DNA from: Nitrososphaerota archaeon
Lineage (GTDB): Archaea > Thermoproteota > Nitrososphaeria_A > Caldarchaeales > Caldarchaeaceae
Direction: 5' to 3'
Length of the DNA stretch: 64,000 nucleotides
Assembly (NCBI GenBank): GCA_041641305.1
Contig: JBEPYN010000001.1
Location: forward strand, 224,001 to 288,000
The number at the start of each line of letters is the position of its first letter. Position 1 is the first letter of the stretch. The notes under the pieces were generated by a model, which was not told the DNA's origin, made no database searches, and saw only the letters and a list, made by a program, of their open reading frames with translations. This document shows, in pieces, positions 32,798 to 42,531 of this stretch. The position numbers and the translations under genes are program-made.

Positions 32798-34246
32798 CTA
32801 TATCACAAGTTTCGCCGAGAGGTAATTCTTGAGCTCCTCTATTTTCACTCGCTCCTGTTTCATAGTGTCTCTGTCCCGTACTGTTACCGTGTCATCTTCT
32901 ATGGTTTGGTAGTCGACTGTGACGCAGAAGGGTGTGCCTATCTCGTCCTGTCTCCTGTATCTCCTGCCTATGCTTCCTTTTTCGTCGTAGAAAGTGTCAA
33001 AATCCAGCTGCAGCATGGCGTGTACCCGTTGTGCAACCTCTGTTAGCTCAGGTTTGTCGAGTAGGGGGAAAACCGCCACGGTGTAAGGCGCTATATATGG
33101 GTGAAGACGAAGAACAGTTCTACCATTTTCCTCAACATATCCAAGCTCAAGTAATGCGAGAAGGCTTCTGTCAACACCCATAGAAAGCTCAAAGACATGA
33201 GGCAGGAAACTTTCTCCGTCTTCTGTTATACGGAGGTCTACGCCGCTAACTCTCTGATGCCCACCGAGGTCATAGTCGGTTCGGTTGTTGCAGGCGACGA
33301 GCTCCATCCACCCAGTCGAGGTAAGAACCTCGAGGTCCCAAGCCTCGGCTGCATAGAACGCCTTCTCATCATCGCCGAGCCTCCTGAACCTCAACCTATC
33401 GGAGCTTATACCCAAACGGAAGTAAAAGTCCTGCACTAGCCAAAGATAGTAGGCGACGAGCCAGCTCGAAACCAGGCCTTTCTCAACAGCTTGTCTACAT
33501 GTGACTTTTTCGACCCTTTCCCCAACCCACATGTTCAACTCTTTGCCGGCAACTTCTCTGGCTTTCGCGGGGTCGTTGGCTGTTCTTGGGTTGAAGAAAA
33601 CCTCTATCTCAGCCTGTGTAAACTCCCGCAGCCTGACAAGTGATTGACGAGGCGATATCTCGTTGCGAAAGCTTTTCCCGACCTGTGCCAGTGGAAGCGG
33701 TAGCTTCCGTCTCGAAATCTTGTAAATACGTGGAAAATCTATGAATATGTTTTGACATGTTTCGGGCCTAAGATATCCTTCGTCTCCTGATGCTCCCAGC
33801 GAAACACCGAACATCATGTTGAATAGGGATACCTTGTCCAGCTCGCCGCCGCAGGTTGGACAACGGAAACCATGCTCTGCAATAATTTCATCAATTTTCT
33901 CGGGCTGAGTACGTTCAGGAACCTTGATGCCGAGCTTCTCCTCCAGCAGCCTGTCAATTCTATAAACAGCTTTGCATGACCTGCATCTTGTTATTGGGTC
34001 GGCAAAGGTTGCAAGATGCCCAGAGGCAATGAACACTGCTTTGGGGAGAATCTGGGAGCCGTCTAAGAGAAGCATCTCATCCCTGCGAACCATTAGACGA
34101 TGCCAAGCGTCGATGAACTTGCGTTTGAGAAGAGCTCCGAGATGTCCGTATTCCCAGAAGCCGGCTGGAGACCCTGGGTAGATCTCCGCCGATGGAAAGA
34201 AAAACCCGCGCTCGAGACCAAGTTTAACAATTTCCTCGAGGCCCAT
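32798..34246 (-). CDS. glyS: Glycyl-tRNA synthetase (alpha2, archaeal/eukaryotic type)
   Basis: LRPETCQ, GKSFRNEISPR, REFTQAE.E, anticodon domain GSIGRRY.RQDEIGTP. Confidence 0.95.
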   Translation of the reverse strand: MGLEEIVKLGLERGFFFPSAEIYPGSPAGFWEYGHLGALLKRKFIDAWHRLMVRRDEMLLLDGSQILPKAVFIASGHLATFADPITRCRSCKAVYRIDRLLEEKLGIKVPERTQPEKIDEIIAEHGFRCPTCGGELDKVSLFNMMFGVSLGASGDEGYLRPETCQNIFIDFPRIYKISRRKLPLPLAQVGKSFRNEISPRQSLVRLREFTQAEIEVFFNPRTANDPAKAREVAGKELNMWVGERVEKVTCRQAVEKGLVSSWLVAYYLWLVQDFYFRLGISSDRLRFRRLGDDEKAFYAAEAWDLEVLTSTGWMELVACNNRTDYDLGGHQRVSGVDLRITEDGESFLPHVFELSMGVDRSLLALLELGYVEENGRTVLRLHPYIAPYTVAVFPLLDKPELTEVAQRVHAMLQLDFDTFYDEKGSIGRRYRRQDEIGTPFCVTVDYQTIEDDTVTVRDRDTMKQERVKIEELKNYLSAKLVI

Positions 34247-34257
34247 GTGGGCTCACG

Positions 34258-35022
34258 CTATACAACGGCTCTTCCGCAGTTGGGACATGTTCCGTTTATG
34301 TTTACGTAGGCGTCTAAACACCCCGAGTGAAACACGACGCCGCAGGATGAGCATTTGACAGCGTTTTCAGCCTCCACAGAGGTGTAGCAAATGGGGCAGA
34401 CAATCCCTTCCTCAACATCGCCAGCTACTTCGAAAGAGGTCGTCTCCAAAGACTGGGATGCTCCAGCCGTGGCCCCGCCCACTCCCCCGTAACTCTGATA
34501 AGGTATCTCGACGACCCGCGGCCGTGTCAGTAAAGCCACAATGCCGAGAGCGAGTATCACTACGGCCGAGAAAAGGGCGACGAAGAAACCTATCCCAGGC
34601 TCGCCGGCTACGCTAAGCGCCGGAACTCTGATGAACCCGAGATATAGGGGGGATACTAGGGCCATCCCACCTCCTAGTAGCGATAAGGCCACTAAAATTG
34701 TTCGCACGGACGTGACACGCTGGCTAAAAGATGTCACCAGCAAGGACAAACCAGCCAAAACACCCCCTAAAACGGATAGAAGCAGTGTCTCGGGCAATAT
34801 GTATCCGCTGAGGACAGAGGTGGAGACAGCGTCAGCCCTAACCGTGTACCATGGAAGAAGAAGCGTCAACACATGTACGCTGCCAGCCAAAGCCAGCACC
34901 GACCCTATCTGAAAAAACCGAATAAGCAACCGTCTCTCTGACACAACCATGCCGCTAAAAACCACATGCTCCACCATATAAAAACATGCCCTACGAGAAA
35001 CCCAAAAACTATCCTTGGCCAT
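34258..35022 (-). CDS. 4-TM membrane protein with C-terminal C4HC3 RING finger, putative membrane E3 ligase
   Basis: Four hydrophobic helices, a Gly/Ser linker, then C-x2-C-x11-C-x2-C-x4-H-x2-C-x10-C-x2-C. Confidence 0.8.
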   Translation of the reverse strand: MAKDSFWVSRRACFYMVEHVVFSGMVVSERRLLIRFFQIGSVLALAGSVHVLTLLLPWYTVRADAVSTSVLSGYILPETLLLSVLGGVLAGLSLLVTSFSQRVTSVRTILVALSLLGGGMALVSPLYLGFIRVPALSVAGEPGIGFFVALFSAVVILALGIVALLTRPRVVEIPYQSYGGVGGATAGASQSLETTSFEVAGDVEEGIVCPICYTSVEAENAVKCSSCGVVFHSGCLDAYVNINGTCPNCGRAVV

Positions 35023-35078: not shown

Positions 35079-35912
35079 ATGGGTCTGCTCCCCAGAAAGT
35101 CCGACAGCTTGGCCGACCTCCGGAAAGAGGTGGCGGCCATACGGGTACAGGTTATAGAGAAACTTGAGGAAAGAATAAGTCTGCTCGAGGAGGCTTTGGC
35201 CAAGCTTAAAGAAGATGTCCGCCAGGTTCTTGAACAGGTTTCGTCTCCCCAGAGGACACTTTCATCGCTGCAATCCGTTGTGGAGAAAGCGTATCTACTT
35301 GATCAGGCGCTGGACTCGTACAAGGCTCTTACAGAGGAGGTTCGGTCCCTTAGTGAGAGTCTGCATGAGACGGCCGACCTTATTTCCAACCAACGGTCTG
35401 AACTGTTTAAGGAGACGCAGAGGCTTTTGCAGGAAAGGGAGAGTTTGTCGAGGCTTCGTGAGGAGGTGCTGAAGTGGCGTGAGGAGCTTGAGACCAAGGA
35501 GAAACAGATAGCGGAGGCCCAGGAGACGCTGAAGCAGCTTATCACCAAGAAGGAATCACTAGAGGCTGAGATAAATGTTCTGACGGAACGTTACTTTGCC
35601 GCGTTTGAGGAGGCTCAGAAAAAGCTGGAAAACTTCGGAAGGGAGATGGATAAGCTGTTCAAGTTGCGGGAGATACGGATGGAGAGGATGATACGTAGGG
35701 AGAGAGAGCTTGAGGAGCGTCTCGCCGAGCTGGAGAAAAGCAAGACCGAGGCCGAGGCCCTAATAGAAACATCCAACAAGCTCAGGGAAGAGGTCAAGAA
35801 GCTGGAGTCCCTTAAGGAGTCGCTGGCAAGAGAGATAGCTGATATGGAGAAACGGAGGAAGGAGCTTAACGAACTAATAACAGAGATGAGGCGCGCATTC
35901 CTGACATCATAG
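35079..35912 (+). CDS. Long coiled-coil protein
   Basis: E/K/R/L-rich heptads over nearly all 277 aa; no enzyme motif. Confidence 0.75.
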   Translation: MGLLPRKSDSLADLRKEVAAIRVQVIEKLEERISLLEEALAKLKEDVRQVLEQVSSPQRTLSSLQSVVEKAYLLDQALDSYKALTEEVRSLSESLHETADLISNQRSELFKETQRLLQERESLSRLREEVLKWREELETKEKQIAEAQETLKQLITKKESLEAEINVLTERYFAAFEEAQKKLENFGREMDKLFKLREIRMERMIRRERELEERLAELEKSKTEAEALIETSNKLREEVKKLESLKESLAREIADMEKRRKELNELITEMRRAFLTS

Positions 35913-36218
35913 CTTCAGCGCCTTCTTTATCTGGGCAACAGTGGCGGACAGCTCCCCAAGAGCGTTGAGAATCTCTCTAACGTCGTCGCTAAGCACCATC
36001 AGCTGCTCCTCTATGTATTTTAGCCTGCGCTCGAGGCCCTCGGGCACTTGGCTGCTCTCAGGCAGATTTTCCAGTCTCTCCTTCATCTTGTCAATCTCTT
36101 CTATAACCTCTGCGAGGACTTCGGCCAACTGTCGGACACCCTCGAACCTTGCGACCGCTCCTTTAGGCGTCTCCAGGTAATCCAGCTCAATAACTTTCTC
36201 GTTCTCTTCTCCACTCAT
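35907..36218 (-). CDS. Small coiled-coil protein, apparent last gene of the ubiquitin operon
   Basis: Starts 1 nt after the srfp stop; short beta-like N-terminus followed by heptads. Confidence 0.75.
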   Translation of the reverse strand: MSGEENEKVIELDYLETPKGAVARFEGVRQLAEVLAEVIEEIDKMKERLENLPESSQVPEGLERRLKYIEEQLMVLSDDVREILNALGELSATVAQIKKALKL

Positions 36219-36219
36219 T

Positions 36220-36450
36220 TCACATCTCTACCAACGGCCTTCGGCAAAGCGGGCACGTCTGCCTAACCACGAGCCAGTCATCGAAACAGGCCATGTGGCC
36301 AACTGCTCCACAGTGAGGACACGAATACGTTTTCTCATTCCCCATCTCCAGCCCACATATCACGCAACTCTCCTGCTTAAGCCGTTGCTTCTGCTCCTCA
36401 AACGGGTTCCAGAACCCTGCGTTAATCTCCTTAATTACCAGCCTCAACAA
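36220..36450 (-). CDS. srfp: Small RING finger protein (E3 ligase)
   Basis: CVIC-x11-CPHC-x4-H-x2-C-x10-CPLCRR with Trp in the central helix; overlaps the E1 end. Confidence 0.9.
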   Translation of the reverse strand: MLRLVIKEINAGFWNPFEEQKQRLKQESCVICGLEMGNEKTYSCPHCGAVGHMACFDDWLVVRQTCPLCRRPLVEM

Positions 36451-37630
36451 GCCTCACCTTTACAGCAACCGGTGTTGCTCTTCTGCTTGAATGGATATAA
36501 AGTATGTCACCGTCGACTATGCCCGCTGACTCTATCTCCATATCATCGCTTAACAATTTTGCACCATGCTGTAACCTCGTGTCCGGGAACATGAGCAGGT
36601 TAGATAGCCTCTCTCTCAAATCGGCGACAGTCTCGTCTGGCGAGACGTTAACCTGCATAGGCTTATCTTCATCGTAGCCGCATACATGGCAGTTAATGTT
36701 TCTCTCCAGCTTTATCCGCGTAAGCCTTCCCTTCAGCCCGTCGAAAACCATCATCCCGTTCAACGGCCTGCCCAAAGAACCTTTATGCAGTATTCGGACG
36801 ACCTCGAAAGCAGCCAAGCCGGAGACTGTAGCCGATATGCTCTGTAAAGCAGGCATCTTGGGGTTGAGCAGTGAGCGGAGCTGTATAACCTGGTCTCGGA
36901 GACCCTTATCCATTTGGTCTAACACGGTCTGTGGAGCAAACTTAATGTCGTAAACAGTCTTGATATTGTATTTGAAGAGTGCCTCAGCCTCTGAAACTTC
37001 CAGTACTATGCCTCGTTCACTCAGCTCCTTTACGAGGTCGTTTGGGGTGCGGCGGCGTAGAGAGCATTCGGACGCCTGTATGTCGGCGGGAATAAGGGCC
37101 TCTGCGTGGCATTCGAGGCAGCTTGTAACACGAGGTATCACAGTTTGAACATTGCCATAATATCCGTCTGTTGCGACGTCAACAAGCGCAGTTCCAACAT
37201 GCACCGCCATCGAGTTTATCCATCTTCTAGTAGGCCAGTTGTCAACAGCGGAAACTATGACATCAACCTCTCCGAAGGTTTCTTCGGGGATTCTTCGAAC
37301 ATCTGTTTGTAAGCCTTTTACTTTTACGAGAGGGTTCATCATGGATATTTTTTTCTCGGCCGTAGATGCTTTTGGCTGGCCTATGTCTTGGTCGGTGTAG
37401 AGCATCTGGCGGCTGAGGTTGGAGAGCTCAACGTAGTCGTTGTCTATGAGGAGCAGCTCACCCACGCCCATAAGCGATAGGTTTTTCGCCACCTCGCATC
37501 CCAGCGCCCCCACACCCGCGATAACCACCCTCCCCGACAGGAGCCTGCTCTGGTCCCATCCCTCGAGCCTTAGCTGACGGTCGTACCTCGACAGAGCGTC
37601 AACCTCGCCCAAAACTACAAACCCTTCCAA
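36431..37630 (-). CDS. e1l: Ubiquitin-activating enzyme E1 with C-terminal Ub-fold domain
   Basis: RYDRQ, GVGALGCE, SNLSRQ, Zn pairs CLEC and CHVC, candidate catalytic Cys in SECS, C-terminal beta-grasp-like ETVADL...GAKLL...GI.DGD. Confidence 0.93.
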   Translation of the reverse strand: MEGFVVLGEVDALSRYDRQLRLEGWDQSRLLSGRVVIAGVGALGCEVAKNLSLMGVGELLLIDNDYVELSNLSRQMLYTDQDIGQPKASTAEKKISMMNPLVKVKGLQTDVRRIPEETFGEVDVIVSAVDNWPTRRWINSMAVHVGTALVDVATDGYYGNVQTVIPRVTSCLECHAEALIPADIQASECSLRRRTPNDLVKELSERGIVLEVSEAEALFKYNIKTVYDIKFAPQTVLDQMDKGLRDQVIQLRSLLNPKMPALQSISATVSGLAAFEVVRILHKGSLGRPLNGMMVFDGLKGRLTRIKLERNINCHVCGYDEDKPMQVNVSPDETVADLRERLSNLLMFPDTRLQHGAKLLSDDMEIESAGIVDGDILYIHSSRRATPVAVKVRLVEAGN

Positions 37631-38121
37631 CGCTTCTTTCCAAAAGCCTGCTCAGGCGTAGCAAATGTTTCAACAAACTGTCTAACACGGGCGTAGAATA
37701 GGTCGGGCCTGTTCTTGTACTCAAATGCTGCGACGGGGTTAAGAGGATCCTCGGGGTTGGGGTTCGTCAGAAGGTTTCTCAGCGACTCGATAACCGCCAC
37801 AATGCGGAGAGAAGGTGACCAATGGTCTTTGAAAATTGATTCACAAACCCTTGCAGGGACGCTGTCCGAGAAATTTGGGTGCCATATACGTGTGTGCCAT
37901 ATAACATCTGGCGGGAAATATGGATAGGACCTCGGAATGATTATTTCTACTCTGAAGTAGCCTCCCTCATATTCGCCTGAGCCAACTATAACGCCTTCGT
38001 AATGGGTTAGGTCGTTTTCAACAGGTGTGAAGGTGGGCTCATTCTCCTGAATCAACGCATACTCGAGAGCCAGCCGCCTGTACCACGCGTTTTCAGGCAG
38101 CTCGACGTATTGGCTCTCCAT
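37615..38121 (-). CDS. e2l: Ubiquitin-conjugating enzyme E2
   Basis: RRL..E, YEGG.F, YP..PP, WHPN, catalytic Cys (RVCES), WSP, PNPEDPLN..AA. Confidence 0.96.
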   Translation of the reverse strand: MESQYVELPENAWYRRLALEYALIQENEPTFTPVENDLTHYEGVIVGSGEYEGGYFRVEIIIPRSYPYFPPDVIWHTRIWHPNFSDSVPARVCESIFKDHWSPSLRIVAVIESLRNLLTNPNPEDPLNPVAAFEYKNRPDLFYARVRQFVETFATPEQAFGKKRWKGL

Positions 38122-38356
38122 ATCCGCCCACCGTCCTCGTTATGAGTACGAATTTGTCTCCATCGGCTACTCCGAGGCTCTCAAGTGTTTCCGTGTCTTT
38201 GAGAGCTCTTCCTTTATAGGTTAGACGTGTGGTGTCGGGTGGAAGTTTCTTCATGGCGCAAACCTTCGTCCGAACTGCTCCGACGGTGGCGTTTGGAGCA
38301 ACCTCGAGCTCTAAGGGTGAACCTCCTCCGACAGCTGGAACGATCTTAATCTTCAT
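38093..38356 (-). CDS. ub: Eukaryote-type ubiquitin precursor (87 aa; G77-G78 plus a 9-aa propeptide)
   Basis: MKIKIV...TVGAVRTKV...RLTYKGRALKD..TLESLGV.DGD...RTVGG|YGEPIRRAA; ATG at 38356. Confidence 0.95.
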   Translation of the reverse strand: MKIKIVPAVGGGSPLELEVAPNATVGAVRTKVCAMKKLPPDTTRLTYKGRALKDTETLESLGVADGDKFVLITRTVGGYGEPIRRAA

Positions 38357-38497
38357 TTCTGAACTCCTGATAACCACAGCGTATATAAGGATTAACCAGA
38401 AGTCAAACCTCGAGCCAGCTTACAAAATACCTCGGTAATATTCAATATCGTTTCTTGCAGCGTCATTTTTATTACCGTCCGAGTCATCGGTCTCCCA

Positions 38498-39106
38498 ATG
38501 CGTGTGCGTATCTACCCACTGGCCTTGGCGAAGGTTGTAAAGCACGCTGCCTCAAGCCTCAACCGAGAGGTGGCGGGCCTCCTCGTCGGCAAATCGGCTG
38601 GGAAAGTTCTGGAGATATGGGACGCGGTCACAGGTGAGCAATATGGTACCCCTGCTTACGTGCAGCTTGATGAGCTGGTCATGGCTAGGGTTGCGGAAGA
38701 CCTCTCTAAATCGGATAAAAACCTGTACATAGTCGGATGGTATCATTCTCATCCGGGGCTTGATGTTTTTCTATCGCCGACAGACATCGACACGCAGAAA
38801 AGATACCAGGCCATGTACAGCAAGGCCGTCGCGCTCGTGGTGGACCCTGTTGAGTATGCCAAGACACGTAGAATCTCTGCTCTTAAGTTCAAGGTTTTCC
38901 AGATATCGAAAGAGGGGAAGGTTGTTTCTCTTCCTGTAAGCATTGGAGTACACAGAGCTAAGCTTCTTGAAAGCACTCTCCACGCCCTGAGCACTTTTGA
39001 TTTTATACATATCTTCGGAGAGTCTTCCAGTAAGACGAGGGAGAAGCCTTCGTTGGATGAACAGGAGAGTTTGCTGGAAAAAGCTAAAAAGTTATTCGGA
39101 GTGTAG
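38498..39106 (+). CDS. rpn11: JAMM/MPN+ metalloprotease (Rpn11-like deubiquitinase / pro-Ub maturase)
   Basis: REVAGLLVG, GWYHSHPGLDVFLSPTD; divergent from ub. Confidence 0.95.
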   Translation: MRVRIYPLALAKVVKHAASSLNREVAGLLVGKSAGKVLEIWDAVTGEQYGTPAYVQLDELVMARVAEDLSKSDKNLYIVGWYHSHPGLDVFLSPTDIDTQKRYQAMYSKAVALVVDPVEYAKTRRISALKFKVFQISKEGKVVSLPVSIGVHRAKLLESTLHALSTFDFIHIFGESSSKTREKPSLDEQESLLEKAKKLFGV

Positions 39107-39137: not shown

Positions 39138-39929
39138 TTGCCGAAAAAAATCGTTCTCCGCATAAAGCCGTCGACGCAGCATCAAGAGACCTCTCCAGAC
39201 ATAGAGATGGTTACTCCTCAACCTTCACAAGAGGAACAACCTGCTAAAGAAGAGAATGTGAAACCTGTTGAGGAGCCTGTTCAACAGCCGGTTGGTGACG
39301 ACCTTGACGCGGCTCTAAAAATGTATGAGGAGCTGATGCGAGAGGTTGAACGGCTGCGCGGTCTCGACCGTAACTTCATGCTTTACTGCATCAAAATGGA
39401 GGAGCTGAGACCTCAGCTGGTGAGAAACATTTTGGGCAGACTTGCCGAGAAAAGGAACGCGTTGCTGGAGAAAAGTGAAGAGGTTTTGGAGAGGCTTAAG
39501 GCGGCGAGAGAAGCCATAGGCTCAGAGTTTGCCCAAGTAGAGGAGGAGCTGATTTGGTCCAGCATCGAGCTAAACACCATGCAGCTTGAGAAGGATACAG
39601 ACTCTGATAAGGGTGTCGGATTAAGGGAGGAGCTTGAGGCAAAGATACCTGAGCTAAGAAAAAAGCTCGCAAGCCTACGAAACAGGTTAAAGATGATTGA
39701 GGAGATGGTGAAACAGCTCTCTGACCTACCGCGCAACATAGCAGACATGACGACAAATAAGGAGGAGCCGGCCAAACTTTTCGAGGAAATCAAGAAAAAA
39801 TACATGCTATCATATGGGCAGCGCGCCGAGGCTGTTGCGAGGGCGGAGGTTGAGAAAATCGCTCAACAGGAGTCGATACCGCGGGAGTATGCTGTTATTA
39901 TTCTCTGGAAAAGCATGTCCAACCGTTAA
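39138..39929 (+). CDS. Coiled-coil protein with disordered P/E/Q-rich N-terminus
   Basis: Heptad-rich helices; 31 nt downstream of rpn11 on the same strand. Confidence 0.72.
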   Translation: MPKKIVLRIKPSTQHQETSPDIEMVTPQPSQEEQPAKEENVKPVEEPVQQPVGDDLDAALKMYEELMREVERLRGLDRNFMLYCIKMEELRPQLVRNILGRLAEKRNALLEKSEEVLERLKAAREAIGSEFAQVEEELIWSSIELNTMQLEKDTDSDKGVGLREELEAKIPELRKKLASLRNRLKMIEEMVKQLSDLPRNIADMTTNKEEPAKLFEEIKKKYMLSYGQRAEAVARAEVEKIAQQESIPREYAVIILWKSMSNR

Positions 39930-40324
39930 AGCACTGGCCTGAATTTTACGCCATAGATTATTAGCTTCGACTCGCCGTCTACACGGATTTTTCTCACGAC
40001 CGTTTCGACATCCATTCCAACTGTAAGCTCTGATGGTTCGCAGTCTGTCATCTGACCTATTACCTGCGTGCCGTCGGGCATCTCAACCCATGCTACAATG
40101 TATGGAACATTTTTCTCAAGACCTGTCTGAGGTTGATAAACTACGGTGAAATGCTTCAGTTTGCCGTGGTTGGCGAGCCTATCTCTTTCAAGTCTGCGTG
40201 AACCACATTTTCTACATATCTTCCGAGAAAACGGGTTGAAGTGGCCGCACTGTGTGCAACGGTTTCCCTCAAGCCTGTAGAGATAGGGGCGGAGACGCCA
40301 GTATGAGGATGGCCGGGTTGACAT
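39926..40324 (-). CDS. DUF35 Zn-ribbon/OB-fold protein
   Basis: CTQCG...CRKCG, QMTD, VGMDVE.V.RK, YG.KFRP. Confidence 0.92.
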   Translation of the reverse strand: MSTRPSSYWRLRPYLYRLEGNRCTQCGHFNPFSRKICRKCGSRRLERDRLANHGKLKHFTVVYQPQTGLEKNVPYIVAWVEMPDGTQVIGQMTDCEPSELTVGMDVETVVRKIRVDGESKLIIYGVKFRPVL

Positions 40325-40325
40325 G

Positions 40326-41483
40326 CTACACCCACTCCTCTACAACGGCAACTGCTGAGAAGGAGCCGAGTCCAGCCATCGAGGACACAAGACCCGCCTT
40401 AGCGCCGTCGACCTGATTTTTTCCAGCGCGTCCAGACAGTTGCAGAAAGCTTTCAACCAAGGCGTAGAGACCCGAGGCCCCTACCGGGTTCCCGCGGCCC
40501 TTCAAACCACCGAATGTGTTGACAGGCACCTCACCCGACAGCGACCACCTGCCTTTACGCGCGAGATGACATGACTCACCGGCCTCTGCCAACCCAATAG
40601 CTTCAAGAGAAAGCGGCGTCAACAAGCTGTAGCTATCATGAACTTCCACGAAGTCAAGATCAGACACCTTTCTCCCCGCCATCTCCAAAGCCCTCTGAGA
40701 AGCCAGAGATAGGCTCCTCAGCCATAGAGGGTCTTCGCGGTCAAACGGAGAGAGATAATCCGTGGCCGCACCAATGCCTGAAACCACAGCCTTGTAGCCG
40801 TCTGTTTTCTGGGCTGTTTCCAGTGACGTGATTACAACAGCGGCTGCTCCGTCCGCCGGAGCAGTTGTCTCCAGCCGCCTAATTGGTTCTGCTACGCTTG
40901 GCGAGTTTACGACTGTGTCGAGGGTGATTTTGAACTGGTATTGAGCGTGCGGCACGGTTTGAGAATGCTCATGGCTGAGGACTGAGAAGTAAGCAACATC
41001 TTCATGCTCCAGCCTGTTGCGTTTCAAATACTCTTTGTAGAGTAGAGCCGCTTCGGCCAGTTGTGTCACTCCAAGTGCAGCAACAGTTTCCGCGGGCTCC
41101 TCCGTCGTGAGCAGTGACACGTAATCCTCGGAAGTGGCCTCAGACATTTTTTCGCCGCCGACAACGAGGACAGATTTGTATAGGCCGGATGAAACAGCTG
41201 CGACGGCGGCTATTGCTGCAGCCAGGCCGGAGGCCCCGCCGGCCTCAACCCTTGAGGCGGCCACACCTCTTATCCCAAGCTCTTCCGCGAGATATGCTCC
41301 GATGTTGGACTGCTCCTGCAGAACCTGCCCAAATGTGTTTGAGACATATACCGCGTCTACTGCGGATATGCCAGCGGAATCGAGTGCTTGTACCGAGGCT
41401 TCCGCCATAAGCTCTGTCAAGCCTTTGTCCCAGTGCTCCTCAACCTTCGTCAACCCAGCGCCTACCAACGCAGCCCGCAACAC
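40326..41483 (-). CDS. Archaeal/SCP2-type thiolase homologue lacking catalytic residues
   Basis: GGEKM, DGAAA, EVHD, VN..GGLK.RG are present, but the catalytic motifs read EAGGASG, HDSY and GNP. Confidence 0.88.
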   Translation of the reverse strand: MLRAALVGAGLTKVEEHWDKGLTELMAEASVQALDSAGISAVDAVYVSNTFGQVLQEQSNIGAYLAEELGIRGVAASRVEAGGASGLAAAIAAVAAVSSGLYKSVLVVGGEKMSEATSEDYVSLLTTEEPAETVAALGVTQLAEAALLYKEYLKRNRLEHEDVAYFSVLSHEHSQTVPHAQYQFKITLDTVVNSPSVAEPIRRLETTAPADGAAAVVITSLETAQKTDGYKAVVSGIGAATDYLSPFDREDPLWLRSLSLASQRALEMAGRKVSDLDFVEVHDSYSLLTPLSLEAIGLAEAGESCHLARKGRWSLSGEVPVNTFGGLKGRGNPVGASGLYALVESFLQLSGRAGKNQVDGAKAGLVSSMAGLGSFSAVAVVEEWV

Positions 41484-41484
41484 G

Positions 41485-42531
41485 CTACACCCTTATCTTC
41501 TCCCTGAATTTGAGGTAGGTCGAGTAATCGATCGGCTTTCTGCGGCTGAGCAGTTGGCTGAAGCTCGGGCCCCTGCCGCGTTTCTCCTCCACGCCGTCGC
41601 AGACAGTTAACACGAAAGAGTCGCTTCCAGCTCCCGAGCCATAAGAGGTCATCAGTATACGCTGACCCGGCTTAGCTATGTCTAAGACCTTTGCAAGACC
41701 AATCATCGAGCAGGCGGCATAAGTGTTTCCGACCACGTCAGCCACTATGCCGGGCTTCACCTTCTCAACGGGAATGGAAAGTATCTTTGAGACCGCGAGA
41801 GGGAATTTTACGTTAGGCTGGTGGAAAACAAAGTAGTCTATGTCGGTGACGGTGAACCCGTTTTCCTCGAGCACGGTCTTGACAGCAGAAAGGGTGTGGT
41901 GGAAGTAGGCTGGTTCCCCTGTGAAGCGGGACCCATGCATCGGATACCGTTCATAGCTTCTTCTCCAGAAGTCAGGAGTGTCGGACACGTATGATGTCGA
42001 GTATTCGAATTTCGCTACACAGTCTGAGCCGTTTCGTCCTATGAGGAAGGCCGCGGCCCCGCTTGCCGCGGTGTATTCGAGGGCATCCCCAGGCCTCCCC
42101 TGAGCTGTGTCAGCTCCTATTGCAAGCCCAAACTCAATCCTCCCTGTCTCGACGAGAGCTGTAACCATCTGCATAGCCTCTGTCCCCGCTTTGCAGGCGA
42201 ACTCGAAATCAGCGGTGGTCACGTGGCGGGATACACCGAGGATTTCGGCGACCAACGTGCCAGAGGGTTTGACCGCATATGGCTTTGACTCTGTTCCCAC
42301 ATGAACCGCCTGAACCCTTGAAGGCTCCACATCAGCCCTAGCCAGAGCCATTCGAGCGGCCTCGGCGGCCATTGTTATAGTGTCTTCATCCAAACCCGCC
42401 ACTGCCTTCTCTTTGACAGGCAGGTCGGCGGAGGATTTCCCCCAGACCCTTGCTATCTCCTCACCAGCAATCCTATACCTGGGGAGATAGCAACCATAAC
42501 CATGAATAGCCGCGTCCCTTATCTTCGGCAT
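41485..42531 (-). CDS. Archaeal HMG-CoA synthase
   Basis: DED..TM, GTES.PYAVKP, EFACKAGT, FTGEPAYF.H, HQPN, GNTY, SYGSGAGSD. Confidence 0.94.
   Translation of the reverse strand: MPKIRDAAIHGYGCYLPRYRIAGEEIARVWGKSSADLPVKEKAVAGLDEDTITMAAEAARMALARADVEPSRVQAVHVGTESKPYAVKPSGTLVAEILGVSRHVTTADFEFACKAGTEAMQMVTALVETGRIEFGLAIGADTAQGRPGDALEYTAASGAAAFLIGRNGSDCVAKFEYSTSYVSDTPDFWRRSYERYPMHGSRFTGEPAYFHHTLSAVKTVLEENGFTVTDIDYFVFHQPNVKFPLAVSKILSIPVEKVKPGIVADVVGNTYAACSMIGLAKVLDIAKPGQRILMTSYGSGAGSDSFVLTVCDGVEEKRGRGPSFSQLLSRRKPIDYSTYLKFREKIRV

What the first reader, a model, noticed from the sequence alone, without database searches (positions are those of the whole stretch)
34258..35022. Second, membrane-anchored RING E3 beside the archaeal ubiquitin operon
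Seen: 4 TM helices (LPWY after TM1, GIGF before TM4, RPR after TM4, suggesting a cytoplasmic C-terminus), a flexible linker, then a C4HC3 finger. Its spacing (x2, x11, x2, x4, x2, x10, x2) is identical to that of srfp 1.2 kb away. The E2-contact Ile and Pro are kept, Trp becomes Tyr, and the linchpin Arg becomes Gly (CPNCGR vs CPLCRR). Known: the Caldiarchaeum cascade as I recall it has Ub, E1, E2, srfp and Rpn11 only; eukaryotic multi-pass RING ligases (MARCH/Doa10, Hrd1) ubiquitylate membrane proteins. Inference: a prokaryotic membrane-protein ubiquitylation or ERAD-like ligase, or a membrane anchor that heterodimerises with srfp.
Basis: partly seen in the sequence, partly recalled or inferred. 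Interest (0 to 1): 0.88.

Follow-up and report, generated by a model that had tools for sequence, protein, structure and literature searches.

The report
Archaeal claudin-fold membrane RING ligase candidate
Near the eukaryote-like ubiquitin genes of a hot-spring archaeon lies a conserved gene for a four-helix membrane protein, predicted to be shaped like animal claudins and ending in a RING finger; it most likely tags membrane proteins with ubiquitin, but this is untested.

Summary
The gene (probably 230 aa, start 34950) encodes four membrane helices, a linker and a C4HC3 finger that models as a RING, not a PHD. New here: the membrane part is predicted to have a claudin-like fold, by structure only. 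It is a single-copy core gene of Caldarchaeales (71 of 75 genomes; Ub and E2 in 74), under strong purifying selection, and was not found in 346 other genomes of the phylum. Fuchs 2018 already mentions a 'second E3', without the membrane domain. Best reading (0.6): a membrane-anchored E3 for the genome's only E2, probably weak in this genus. This scan noted the same gene before in other genomes; the summaries shown do not mention the claudin fold.

The parts
34258..34950 (-). Membrane RING gene, probable 230-aa form (longest ORF runs to 35022, 254 aa)
34976..34984 (-). TATA-box-like element (TTTTTATAT) 27-34 nt upstream of ATG 34950, at a similar distance in most orthologues; inferred own promoter
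34858..34938 (-). TM1 (helix 5-31), followed by invariant Trp34
34807..34848 (-). Predicted extracellular beta-hairpin (35-48), followed by invariant Gly49 and conserved Tyr50; no cysteine pair
34729..34794 (-). TM2 (helix 53-74)
34615..34716 (-). Long TM3 (helix 79-112) with conserved Ser100-Pro101-x-Tyr103
34528..34608 (-). Short strand (115-118), invariant Gly121 and TM4 (helix 120-141)
34417..34524 (-). Variable cytoplasmic linker (143-178), low model confidence at 150-167, longer in some genera
34276..34398 (-). C4HC3 RING finger (Cys185-Cys225) with Ile187, Tyr215, Pro223; Gly226 follows at the linchpin position
32798..34246 (-). Glycyl-tRNA synthetase gene, 11 nt downstream; neighbour in 20 of 20 loci examined, possibly co-transcribed
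35079..35912 (+). Conserved 277-aa coiled-coil gene, divergent from the membrane RING gene and separating it from the Ub operon
35907..36218 (-). Conserved 103-aa gene (TPxG motif plus coiled coil) directly after srfp
36220..36450 (-). srfp, the small RING E3
   Evidence: PMC5654768
36431..37630 (-). E1
37615..38121 (-). E2, the only one found in the genome
38093..38377 (-). Pro-ubiquitin
38498..39106 (+). Rpn11/JAMM protease

Best explanation
The protein is a membrane-anchored RING E3 ligase of the Caldarchaeales ubiquitin system. Shown by computation: a four-helix claudin-like domain with both ends inside the cell, a flexible linker and a RING fold. Inferred: the RING binds the single E2 loaded with ubiquitin through Ile187, the Trp/Tyr215 helix and Pro223; the membrane domain binds a partner or substrate membrane protein from the side, as claudin-fold auxiliary subunits do; ubiquitin is passed to cytoplasmic lysines of that protein. 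With Gly at the linchpin and Tyr for Trp, the copy in this genus is probably a slow or mono-ubiquitylating ligase that relies on membrane proximity; orthologues with Trp and Lys should be stronger. The fate of the substrate (Cdc48/proteasome or ESCRT-III) is a guess.
For: RING fold: model pLDDT 95; all 50 Foldseek rows are RING E3s; VIA-align best rows ZNRF1, HRD1 and RNF165 RINGs, Z 7.4, rmsd about 2 A over 53-56 residues; profile search of solved structures best Arkadia RING, E 1.9e-13. E2-contact positions over 45 orthologues: Ile 44, Trp 33 / Tyr 12, Pro invariant; the matching srfp residues I30 and W58 are needed for activity (PMC5654768). RING dN/dS 0.015-0.03. One copy in 71 of 75 genomes; Ub and E2 in 74 of 75; no credible hit in 346 other genomes of the phylum, of which 340 have no E2 over the family cut-off. 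Next to srfp in 15 of 20 loci across all four families. Related archaeal membrane RINGs with other membrane domains sit directly after Ub-E2-E1 or beside a JAB gene. A claudin-fold subunit (MOSMO) is part of a eukaryotic membrane E3 (bioRxiv 10.1101/2025.09.11.675358). Two Cdc48, proteasome and two Snf7 genes are in the genome.
Against: No activity data exist. The linchpin is Gly, Asn or Gln in 25 of 45 orthologues, whereas srfp always has Arg or Lys; srfp R69A impairs the cascade, and in RNF38 Gly at this position weakens E2-Ub binding 36-fold, Lys 12-fold (PMC12326332). The gene is not in the Ub operon, and in one whole family it is far from Ub-E2-E1. Co-occurrence rests on one lineage, so it is a single event, not many independent ones.
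Confidence: 0.6

Rival explanations
1. The RING is a weak or silent partner: it anchors srfp or E2 at the membrane, or pairs with srfp as in RING heterodimers where one finger does the catalysis, possibly with the two coiled-coil proteins as a scaffold.
For: Non-basic linchpin in 25 of 45 orthologues. The block srfp, 103-aa gene, 277-aa gene, membrane RING travels together even when Ub-E2-E1 moves away. In family f2 srfp has lost the Ile and Trp positions but keeps Lys/Arg, while the membrane RING keeps Ile and Trp but has Gly, which looks complementary.
Against: Ile, Trp and Pro of the E2 face are kept, and Lys/Arg is present in all 17 f4 orthologues examined. In genus g6 and in G037 the gene is separated from srfp. 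The two fingers are only 33% identical and do not mix in a (weak) tree.
Confidence: 0.2
2. The finger is a RING-fold interaction module outside ubiquitin transfer; the protein is a claudin-like membrane organiser working with the neighbouring coiled-coil proteins, and its place near the Ub genes is historical.
For: Strongest gene linkage is to glyS, 20 of 20. Some RING-fold matches are not ligases (TFIIH p44, GATOR2/SEA). Claudin-like four-helix domains with zinc-ribbon or other appendages occur in bacteria.
Against: The conserved surface residues are those that contact E2 in srfp; range matches the E2 within the phylum; a relative of the finger fills the E3 slot of a Ub operon.
Confidence: 0.12
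3. An ERAD-type ligase that, like Hrd1 or Doa10/MARCH6, recognises misfolded membrane proteins and helps pull them out for Cdc48 and the proteasome.
For: Multi-pass membrane protein with C4HC3 ligands as in MARCH/Doa10; two Cdc48 and a proteasome are encoded.
Against: The membrane domain matches claudin-fold proteins; Hrd1 and Doa10/MARCH6 membrane domains are not among the top rows. The RING is C-terminal and Pfam RINGv is not among the hits. No Derlin match; no Cdc48 gene seen next to it in 20 loci.
Confidence: 0.08

Closest known systems
C. subterraneum 'second E3 protein' (Fuchs et al. 2018, PMC6043591); database names 'RING finger protein' / 'RING-H2 finger protein'
   Same: Almost certainly the orthologue: genome G011 has the published length of 1,680,938 bp and carries the gene (87% identical) in the same place; only two such fingers were found in this genome.
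   Different: The paper mentions it in passing, calls both E3s 'small', and says nothing about a membrane domain; no experiment on it was found.
srfp (CSUB_C1477), small RING E3 (Nunoura 2011 PMC3082918; Hennell James 2017 PMC5654768)
   Same: Same C4HC3 spacing, 33% identity over the finger, Ile and Pro kept.
   Different: srfp is soluble, in the operon, has Trp and Arg, and is a proven E3; this one is membrane-bound, separately promoted and has a variable linchpin.
Prokaryotic C4HC3 RINGs (Pfam Prok-RING_1, PF14446; Burroughs, Iyer and Aravind 2011)
   Same: 38 of 50 family fingers match PF14446 at E <= 0.001; some orthologues carry it as a precomputed domain. From memory, not readable here: that work described prokaryotic RINGs near Ub/E1/E2 genes, some with membrane helices.
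   Different: The window protein scores below the PF14446 cut-off; I found no description of a claudin-like domain on these RINGs.
Claudin/PMP22/TARP/LHFPL superfamily
   Same: Four-helix order with extracellular strands; Foldseek top 50 rows all claudin, TARP or Cav-gamma entries, best E 2.8e-3; VIA-align Z 13.2 for LHFPL4 and 13.0 for claudin-15, rmsd 3.4-3.5 A over 136-142 residues.
   Different: No sequence-level match; only a two-strand hairpin in loop 1; no cysteine pair; fused to a RING.
MEGF8-MOSMO-MGRN1 membrane E3 complex (bioRxiv 10.1101/2025.09.11.675358)
   Same: Combines a claudin-fold tetraspan with a cytoplasmic RING to ubiquitylate a membrane protein.
   Different: Three chains with a receptor subunit and an Arg linchpin; analogy only, no homology shown.
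MARCH/Doa10 and Hrd1 multi-pass RING ligases
   Same: Multi-pass membrane protein with a cytoplasmic RING; C4HC3 ligands as in MARCH/Doa10.
   Different: Different membrane fold, RING position and spacing; no ERAD partners linked.

Membership tests
RING finger domain | Eight cross-brace zinc ligands | tested here: met
   All eight invariant in 50 sequences; zf-RING_2 above cut-off
RING finger domain | RING fold with central helix and short final loop | tested here: met
   Predicted model pLDDT 95; top structural matches are RING E3s
RING E3 ligase | E2-contact Ile, Trp-type helix residue and Pro | tested here: met
   Ile 44/45, Trp 33 or Tyr 12 of 45, Pro invariant; Tyr in this protein
RING E3 ligase | Basic linchpin residue after the last Cys (typical, not universal) | tested here: not met
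   Gly226 here; Lys/Arg in 20 of 45 orthologues
RING E3 ligase | Binds E2~Ub and stimulates transfer | not testable with these tools
   Needs the in vitro cascade of PMC5654768
PHD finger | PHD fold and profile score | tested here: not met
   PF00628 20.1 bits (23.9 for the domain alone) under cut-off 24 and far below zf-RING_2; model has the RING helix and matches RINGs
Prok-RING_1 (PF14446) | Profile match and association with Ub/E1/E2/JAB genes | tested here: inconclusive
   Window protein below cut-off; 38 of 50 relatives match weakly; gene association present
Claudin/PMP22 superfamily | Four-helix bundle capped by extracellular beta strands from loops 1 and 2 | tested here: met
   Predicted model only. 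Margin over plain four-helix bundles is about 2 Z units
Claudin/PMP22 superfamily | Sequence homology (Pfam PMP22_Claudin, Claudin_2) | tested here: not met
   No hit for 41 members, none to solved structures, none at this gene in 75 genomes
Claudins proper | W-GLW-C-C signature with loop-1 disulfide (from my own knowledge) | tested here: not met
   Invariant Trp34 and Gly49-Tyr50 resemble the first part, but no sequence has two cysteines in the domain
Claudins proper | Polymerises into junction strands | not testable with these tools
   No experiment possible
MARCH/Doa10 (RING-CH) ligases | RINGv profile, N-terminal RING | tested here: not met
   RINGv not among Pfam hits; RING is C-terminal
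Hrd1/Doa10 ERAD ligases | Hrd1- or Doa10-type membrane fold | tested here: inconclusive
   Not listed among top structural matches, which are claudin-fold; absence from the list does not exclude

The most novel reading that the evidence does not exclude
The protein is an active single-chain claudin-fold/RING ligase, a prokaryotic counterpart of eukaryotic receptor-type membrane E3s, whose membrane domain is a true homologue of claudin-superfamily proteins and selects membrane substrates for ubiquitylation; with srfp and the two coiled-coil proteins it may form a membrane ubiquitylation complex.
Probability: 0.3. Interest if true: 0.85.

Novelty: new variant of a known kind. Interest (0 to 1): 0.6.

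Why it matters
No natural substrate of any archaeal E1/E2/E3 cascade was known in the papers read (PMC5654768 used a foreign substrate). One of only two E3 candidates in this order being a conserved membrane protein points to membrane proteins as substrates and to membrane ubiquitylation outside eukaryotes. It is directly testable, because the orthologous E1, E2, Ub and Rpn11 are already reconstituted. The claudin-like fold links two things usually thought of as eukaryotic and suggests how substrates are recognised. Limits: the gene was mentioned before, prokaryotic membrane RINGs are not new as a class, and no eukaryotic orthologue was found.

Tried and rejected
Complex prediction of E2 with the RING domain gave no verdict (score 0.12, mark 0.32); it is not evidence either way. 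No RNA holder was listed; raw reads from one hot-spring run gave 41 reads of a relative at 90-99% identity, mostly on Ub/E2/E1, too few to judge this gene. Sequence searches for claudin homology were blank. Weak membrane-domain hits outside the order (four fetched) had no RING in the ORF and were rejected. Five non-Caldarchaeales genomes with an E2 gave only partial finger hits. The search for related loci failed on the alignment and found nothing for P0097. Asgard genomes could not be searched directly as a group; the all-protein profile search found only one full-length relative outside the family, P0040, of unknown lineage. The RING tree has 55 columns and is weak; it only shows that srfp and membrane RINGs do not mix. 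Burroughs 2011 and 2012 were not held. I recalled yeast Gld1/Vld1 as claudin-like; the paper says only 'tetra-spanning', so I dropped it. Atlas feature searches gave only low-score leads. The sigma-70 promoter scan does not suit archaea. The 254-aa start was rejected in favour of 34950.

Full report
Observation. The minus-strand ORF at 34258-35022 is as described. A hydropathy scan gives four membrane segments, and a six-frame pattern scan of the 1.66-Mb genome finds only two C4HC3 fingers, this one and srfp, both spaced 2/11/2/4/2/10/2. Orthologues start at ATG 34950, and a TATA-like element lies 31-34 nt upstream, at a similar distance in most orthologues, so the protein is probably 230 aa; numbering below uses that start. 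Against the C. subterraneum-type genome dN/dS is 0.015 in the RING and 0.12 in the membrane part.

Origin. The closest named hits are Candidatus Caldarchaeum proteins. Genome G011 has the published length of the C. subterraneum composite genome and the same gene order with an 87% identical orthologue.

The finger. Pfam zf-RING_2 scores 37.5 bits (cut-off 27.3) and PHD 20.1 (cut-off 24). A model of the domain from 50 sequences (pLDDT 95) matches RING E3s in all 50 Foldseek rows and ZNRF1, HRD1 and RNF165 RINGs at Z 7.4; a profile search of solved structures agrees. The PHD alternative is rejected. In srfp, I30Q abolishes and W58A and R69A impair ubiquitylation (PMC5654768). Over 45 orthologues the matching positions are Ile 44; Trp 33, Tyr 12 (all Tyr in this genus); Pro invariant; linchpin Lys 19, Arg 1, Gly 18, Asn 4, Gln 3. 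So the E2-binding face is conserved, Tyr is a local change, and the linchpin varies by lineage, while srfp always has Arg or Lys. In RNF38, Gly here weakens E2-Ub binding 36-fold and Lys 12-fold (PMC12326332), so a weak ligase is expected in this genus (inference). The spacing is the motif published for srfp and is shared, within a residue or two, by other archaeal fingers; the two fingers are 33% identical and do not mix in a poorly resolved tree. Identical spacing is therefore a family trait.

The membrane domain. The full model (pLDDT 83) shows TM1, a beta-hairpin, TM2, a long TM3, a short strand and TM4. Foldseek's top 50 rows are all claudin, TARP or Cav-gamma entries, with best E 2.8e-3, not formally significant. 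An independent wide search ranks ten claudin-fold chains first (LHFPL4 Z 13.2, claudin-15 Z 13.0), about two units above plain four-helix bundles. That margin is modest for helical bundles, but two methods agree and the strand layout fits. Invariant Trp34, Gly49, Ser100 and Gly121 fall where claudins have their Trp, GLW, TM3 proline region and TM4-entry Gly (my own knowledge); the cysteine pair is missing and no sequence search detects homology. Similar predicted folds occur in bacterial families such as Trp_oprn_chp and DUF5336, so the fold itself is not unique to this gene among prokaryotes. Charge bias puts both termini, and so the RING, in the cytoplasm.

Distribution and context. The membrane domain is present once in 71 of 75 genomes of the order, in all 15 genera; E2 and ubiquitin in 74 of 75. 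In a 400-genome sample of the phylum it is in 52 of 54 order members and has no credible hit in the other 346, where only six have an E2 over cut-off. This is one lineage, not independent co-occurrence. In 20 loci the gene precedes glyS in all, follows srfp, the 103-aa gene and the opposite-strand 277-aa gene in 15, and is near Ub-E2-E1 in 9; in family f2 the srfp block lies apart from Ub-E2-E1. It is thus not part of the Ub operon. One full-length distant relative of unknown lineage exists. Related fingers on unrelated membrane domains occur in other metagenome contigs, one directly after Ub-E2-E1 and one beside a JAB gene. The genome has two Cdc48, proteasome subunits and two Snf7 genes, but no Derlin match.

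Mechanism. Most likely (0.6) a membrane-anchored E3: the RING recruits the single E2 carrying ubiquitin, the claudin-like bundle holds a membrane partner or substrate, and the linker lets the RING reach its cytoplasmic lysines. Fold, topology, conservation and range are computed; E2 binding, activity, substrate and fate are inferred. A eukaryotic precedent for the pairing is MOSMO, a claudin-fold subunit of the MEGF8-MOSMO-MGRN1 ligase, as analogy only. Rivals are a weak partner or anchor for srfp (0.2), a role outside ubiquitin transfer (0.12) and an ERAD-type ligase (0.08).

What is known. Nunoura 2011 and Hennell James 2017 do not discuss the gene in the passages searched. Fuchs 2018 notes 'a second E3 protein' next to the operon and calls both E3s small, with no mention of membranes. 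Literature searches found nothing on a claudin-fold or membrane E3 in these archaea, but the library lacks most subscription papers, including Burroughs 2011, which from memory reported prokaryotic RINGs with membrane helices. Earlier notes of this scan describe the same gene in other genomes and claudin-like proteins in other archaea; they are unchecked notes, not support.

Verdict. Real, conserved and untested; a new variant of a known kind. Interest 0.6.

Noticed in passing
window 35079-35912 (+), 35907-36218 (-), 39138-39929 (+): Three unannotated coiled-coil genes are conserved across the order; the first two stay with srfp, the third usually with Rpn11. No family match.
   Followed up: partly
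L033, L038, L040, L041, L078 (family f2): srfp is detached from Ub-E2-E1 and has lost the Ile and Trp E2-contact positions while keeping Lys/Arg at the linchpin.
   Followed up: partly
L079:3417-6280 (G023, genus g6): A second ubiquitin-like cluster with an E1-like gene, a ubiquitin-E2 fusion and a JAB gene, plus a further RING-like ORF nearby.
   Followed up: partly
L052:735-8243: Metagenome operon Ub, E2, E1, multi-pass membrane RING, second E2, with two JAB genes; the membrane domain is unrelated to the one studied. Lineage unknown.
   Followed up: partly
L088:377-2229: GOLD-like ectodomain, single membrane helix and C4HC3 RING next to a JAB gene.
   Followed up: no
L051:2941-3873: Orphan full-length relative (21% identity) with a short helical insert before the RING, with no Ub genes on its 4-kb contig.
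   Followed up: partly
G000:C1:566850-569514 (outside the window): A Cdc48 gene is directly followed by a Snf7/ESCRT-III gene.
   Followed up: no
ubiquitin genes of about 20 genomes, e.g. L074:8612, L045: A stop codon falls right after the di-glycine position, suggesting ubiquitin without a propeptide, unlike the window's pro-ubiquitin at 38093-38377.
   Followed up: no
window 39926-42531: HMG-CoA synthase, thiolase and OB-fold cluster lies beside the Ub locus here and beside the membrane RING gene in genus g6.
   Followed up: no
L082, L083: Extra glyS fragments in both orientations near the gene in two draft genomes; possible assembly artefacts.
   Followed up: no
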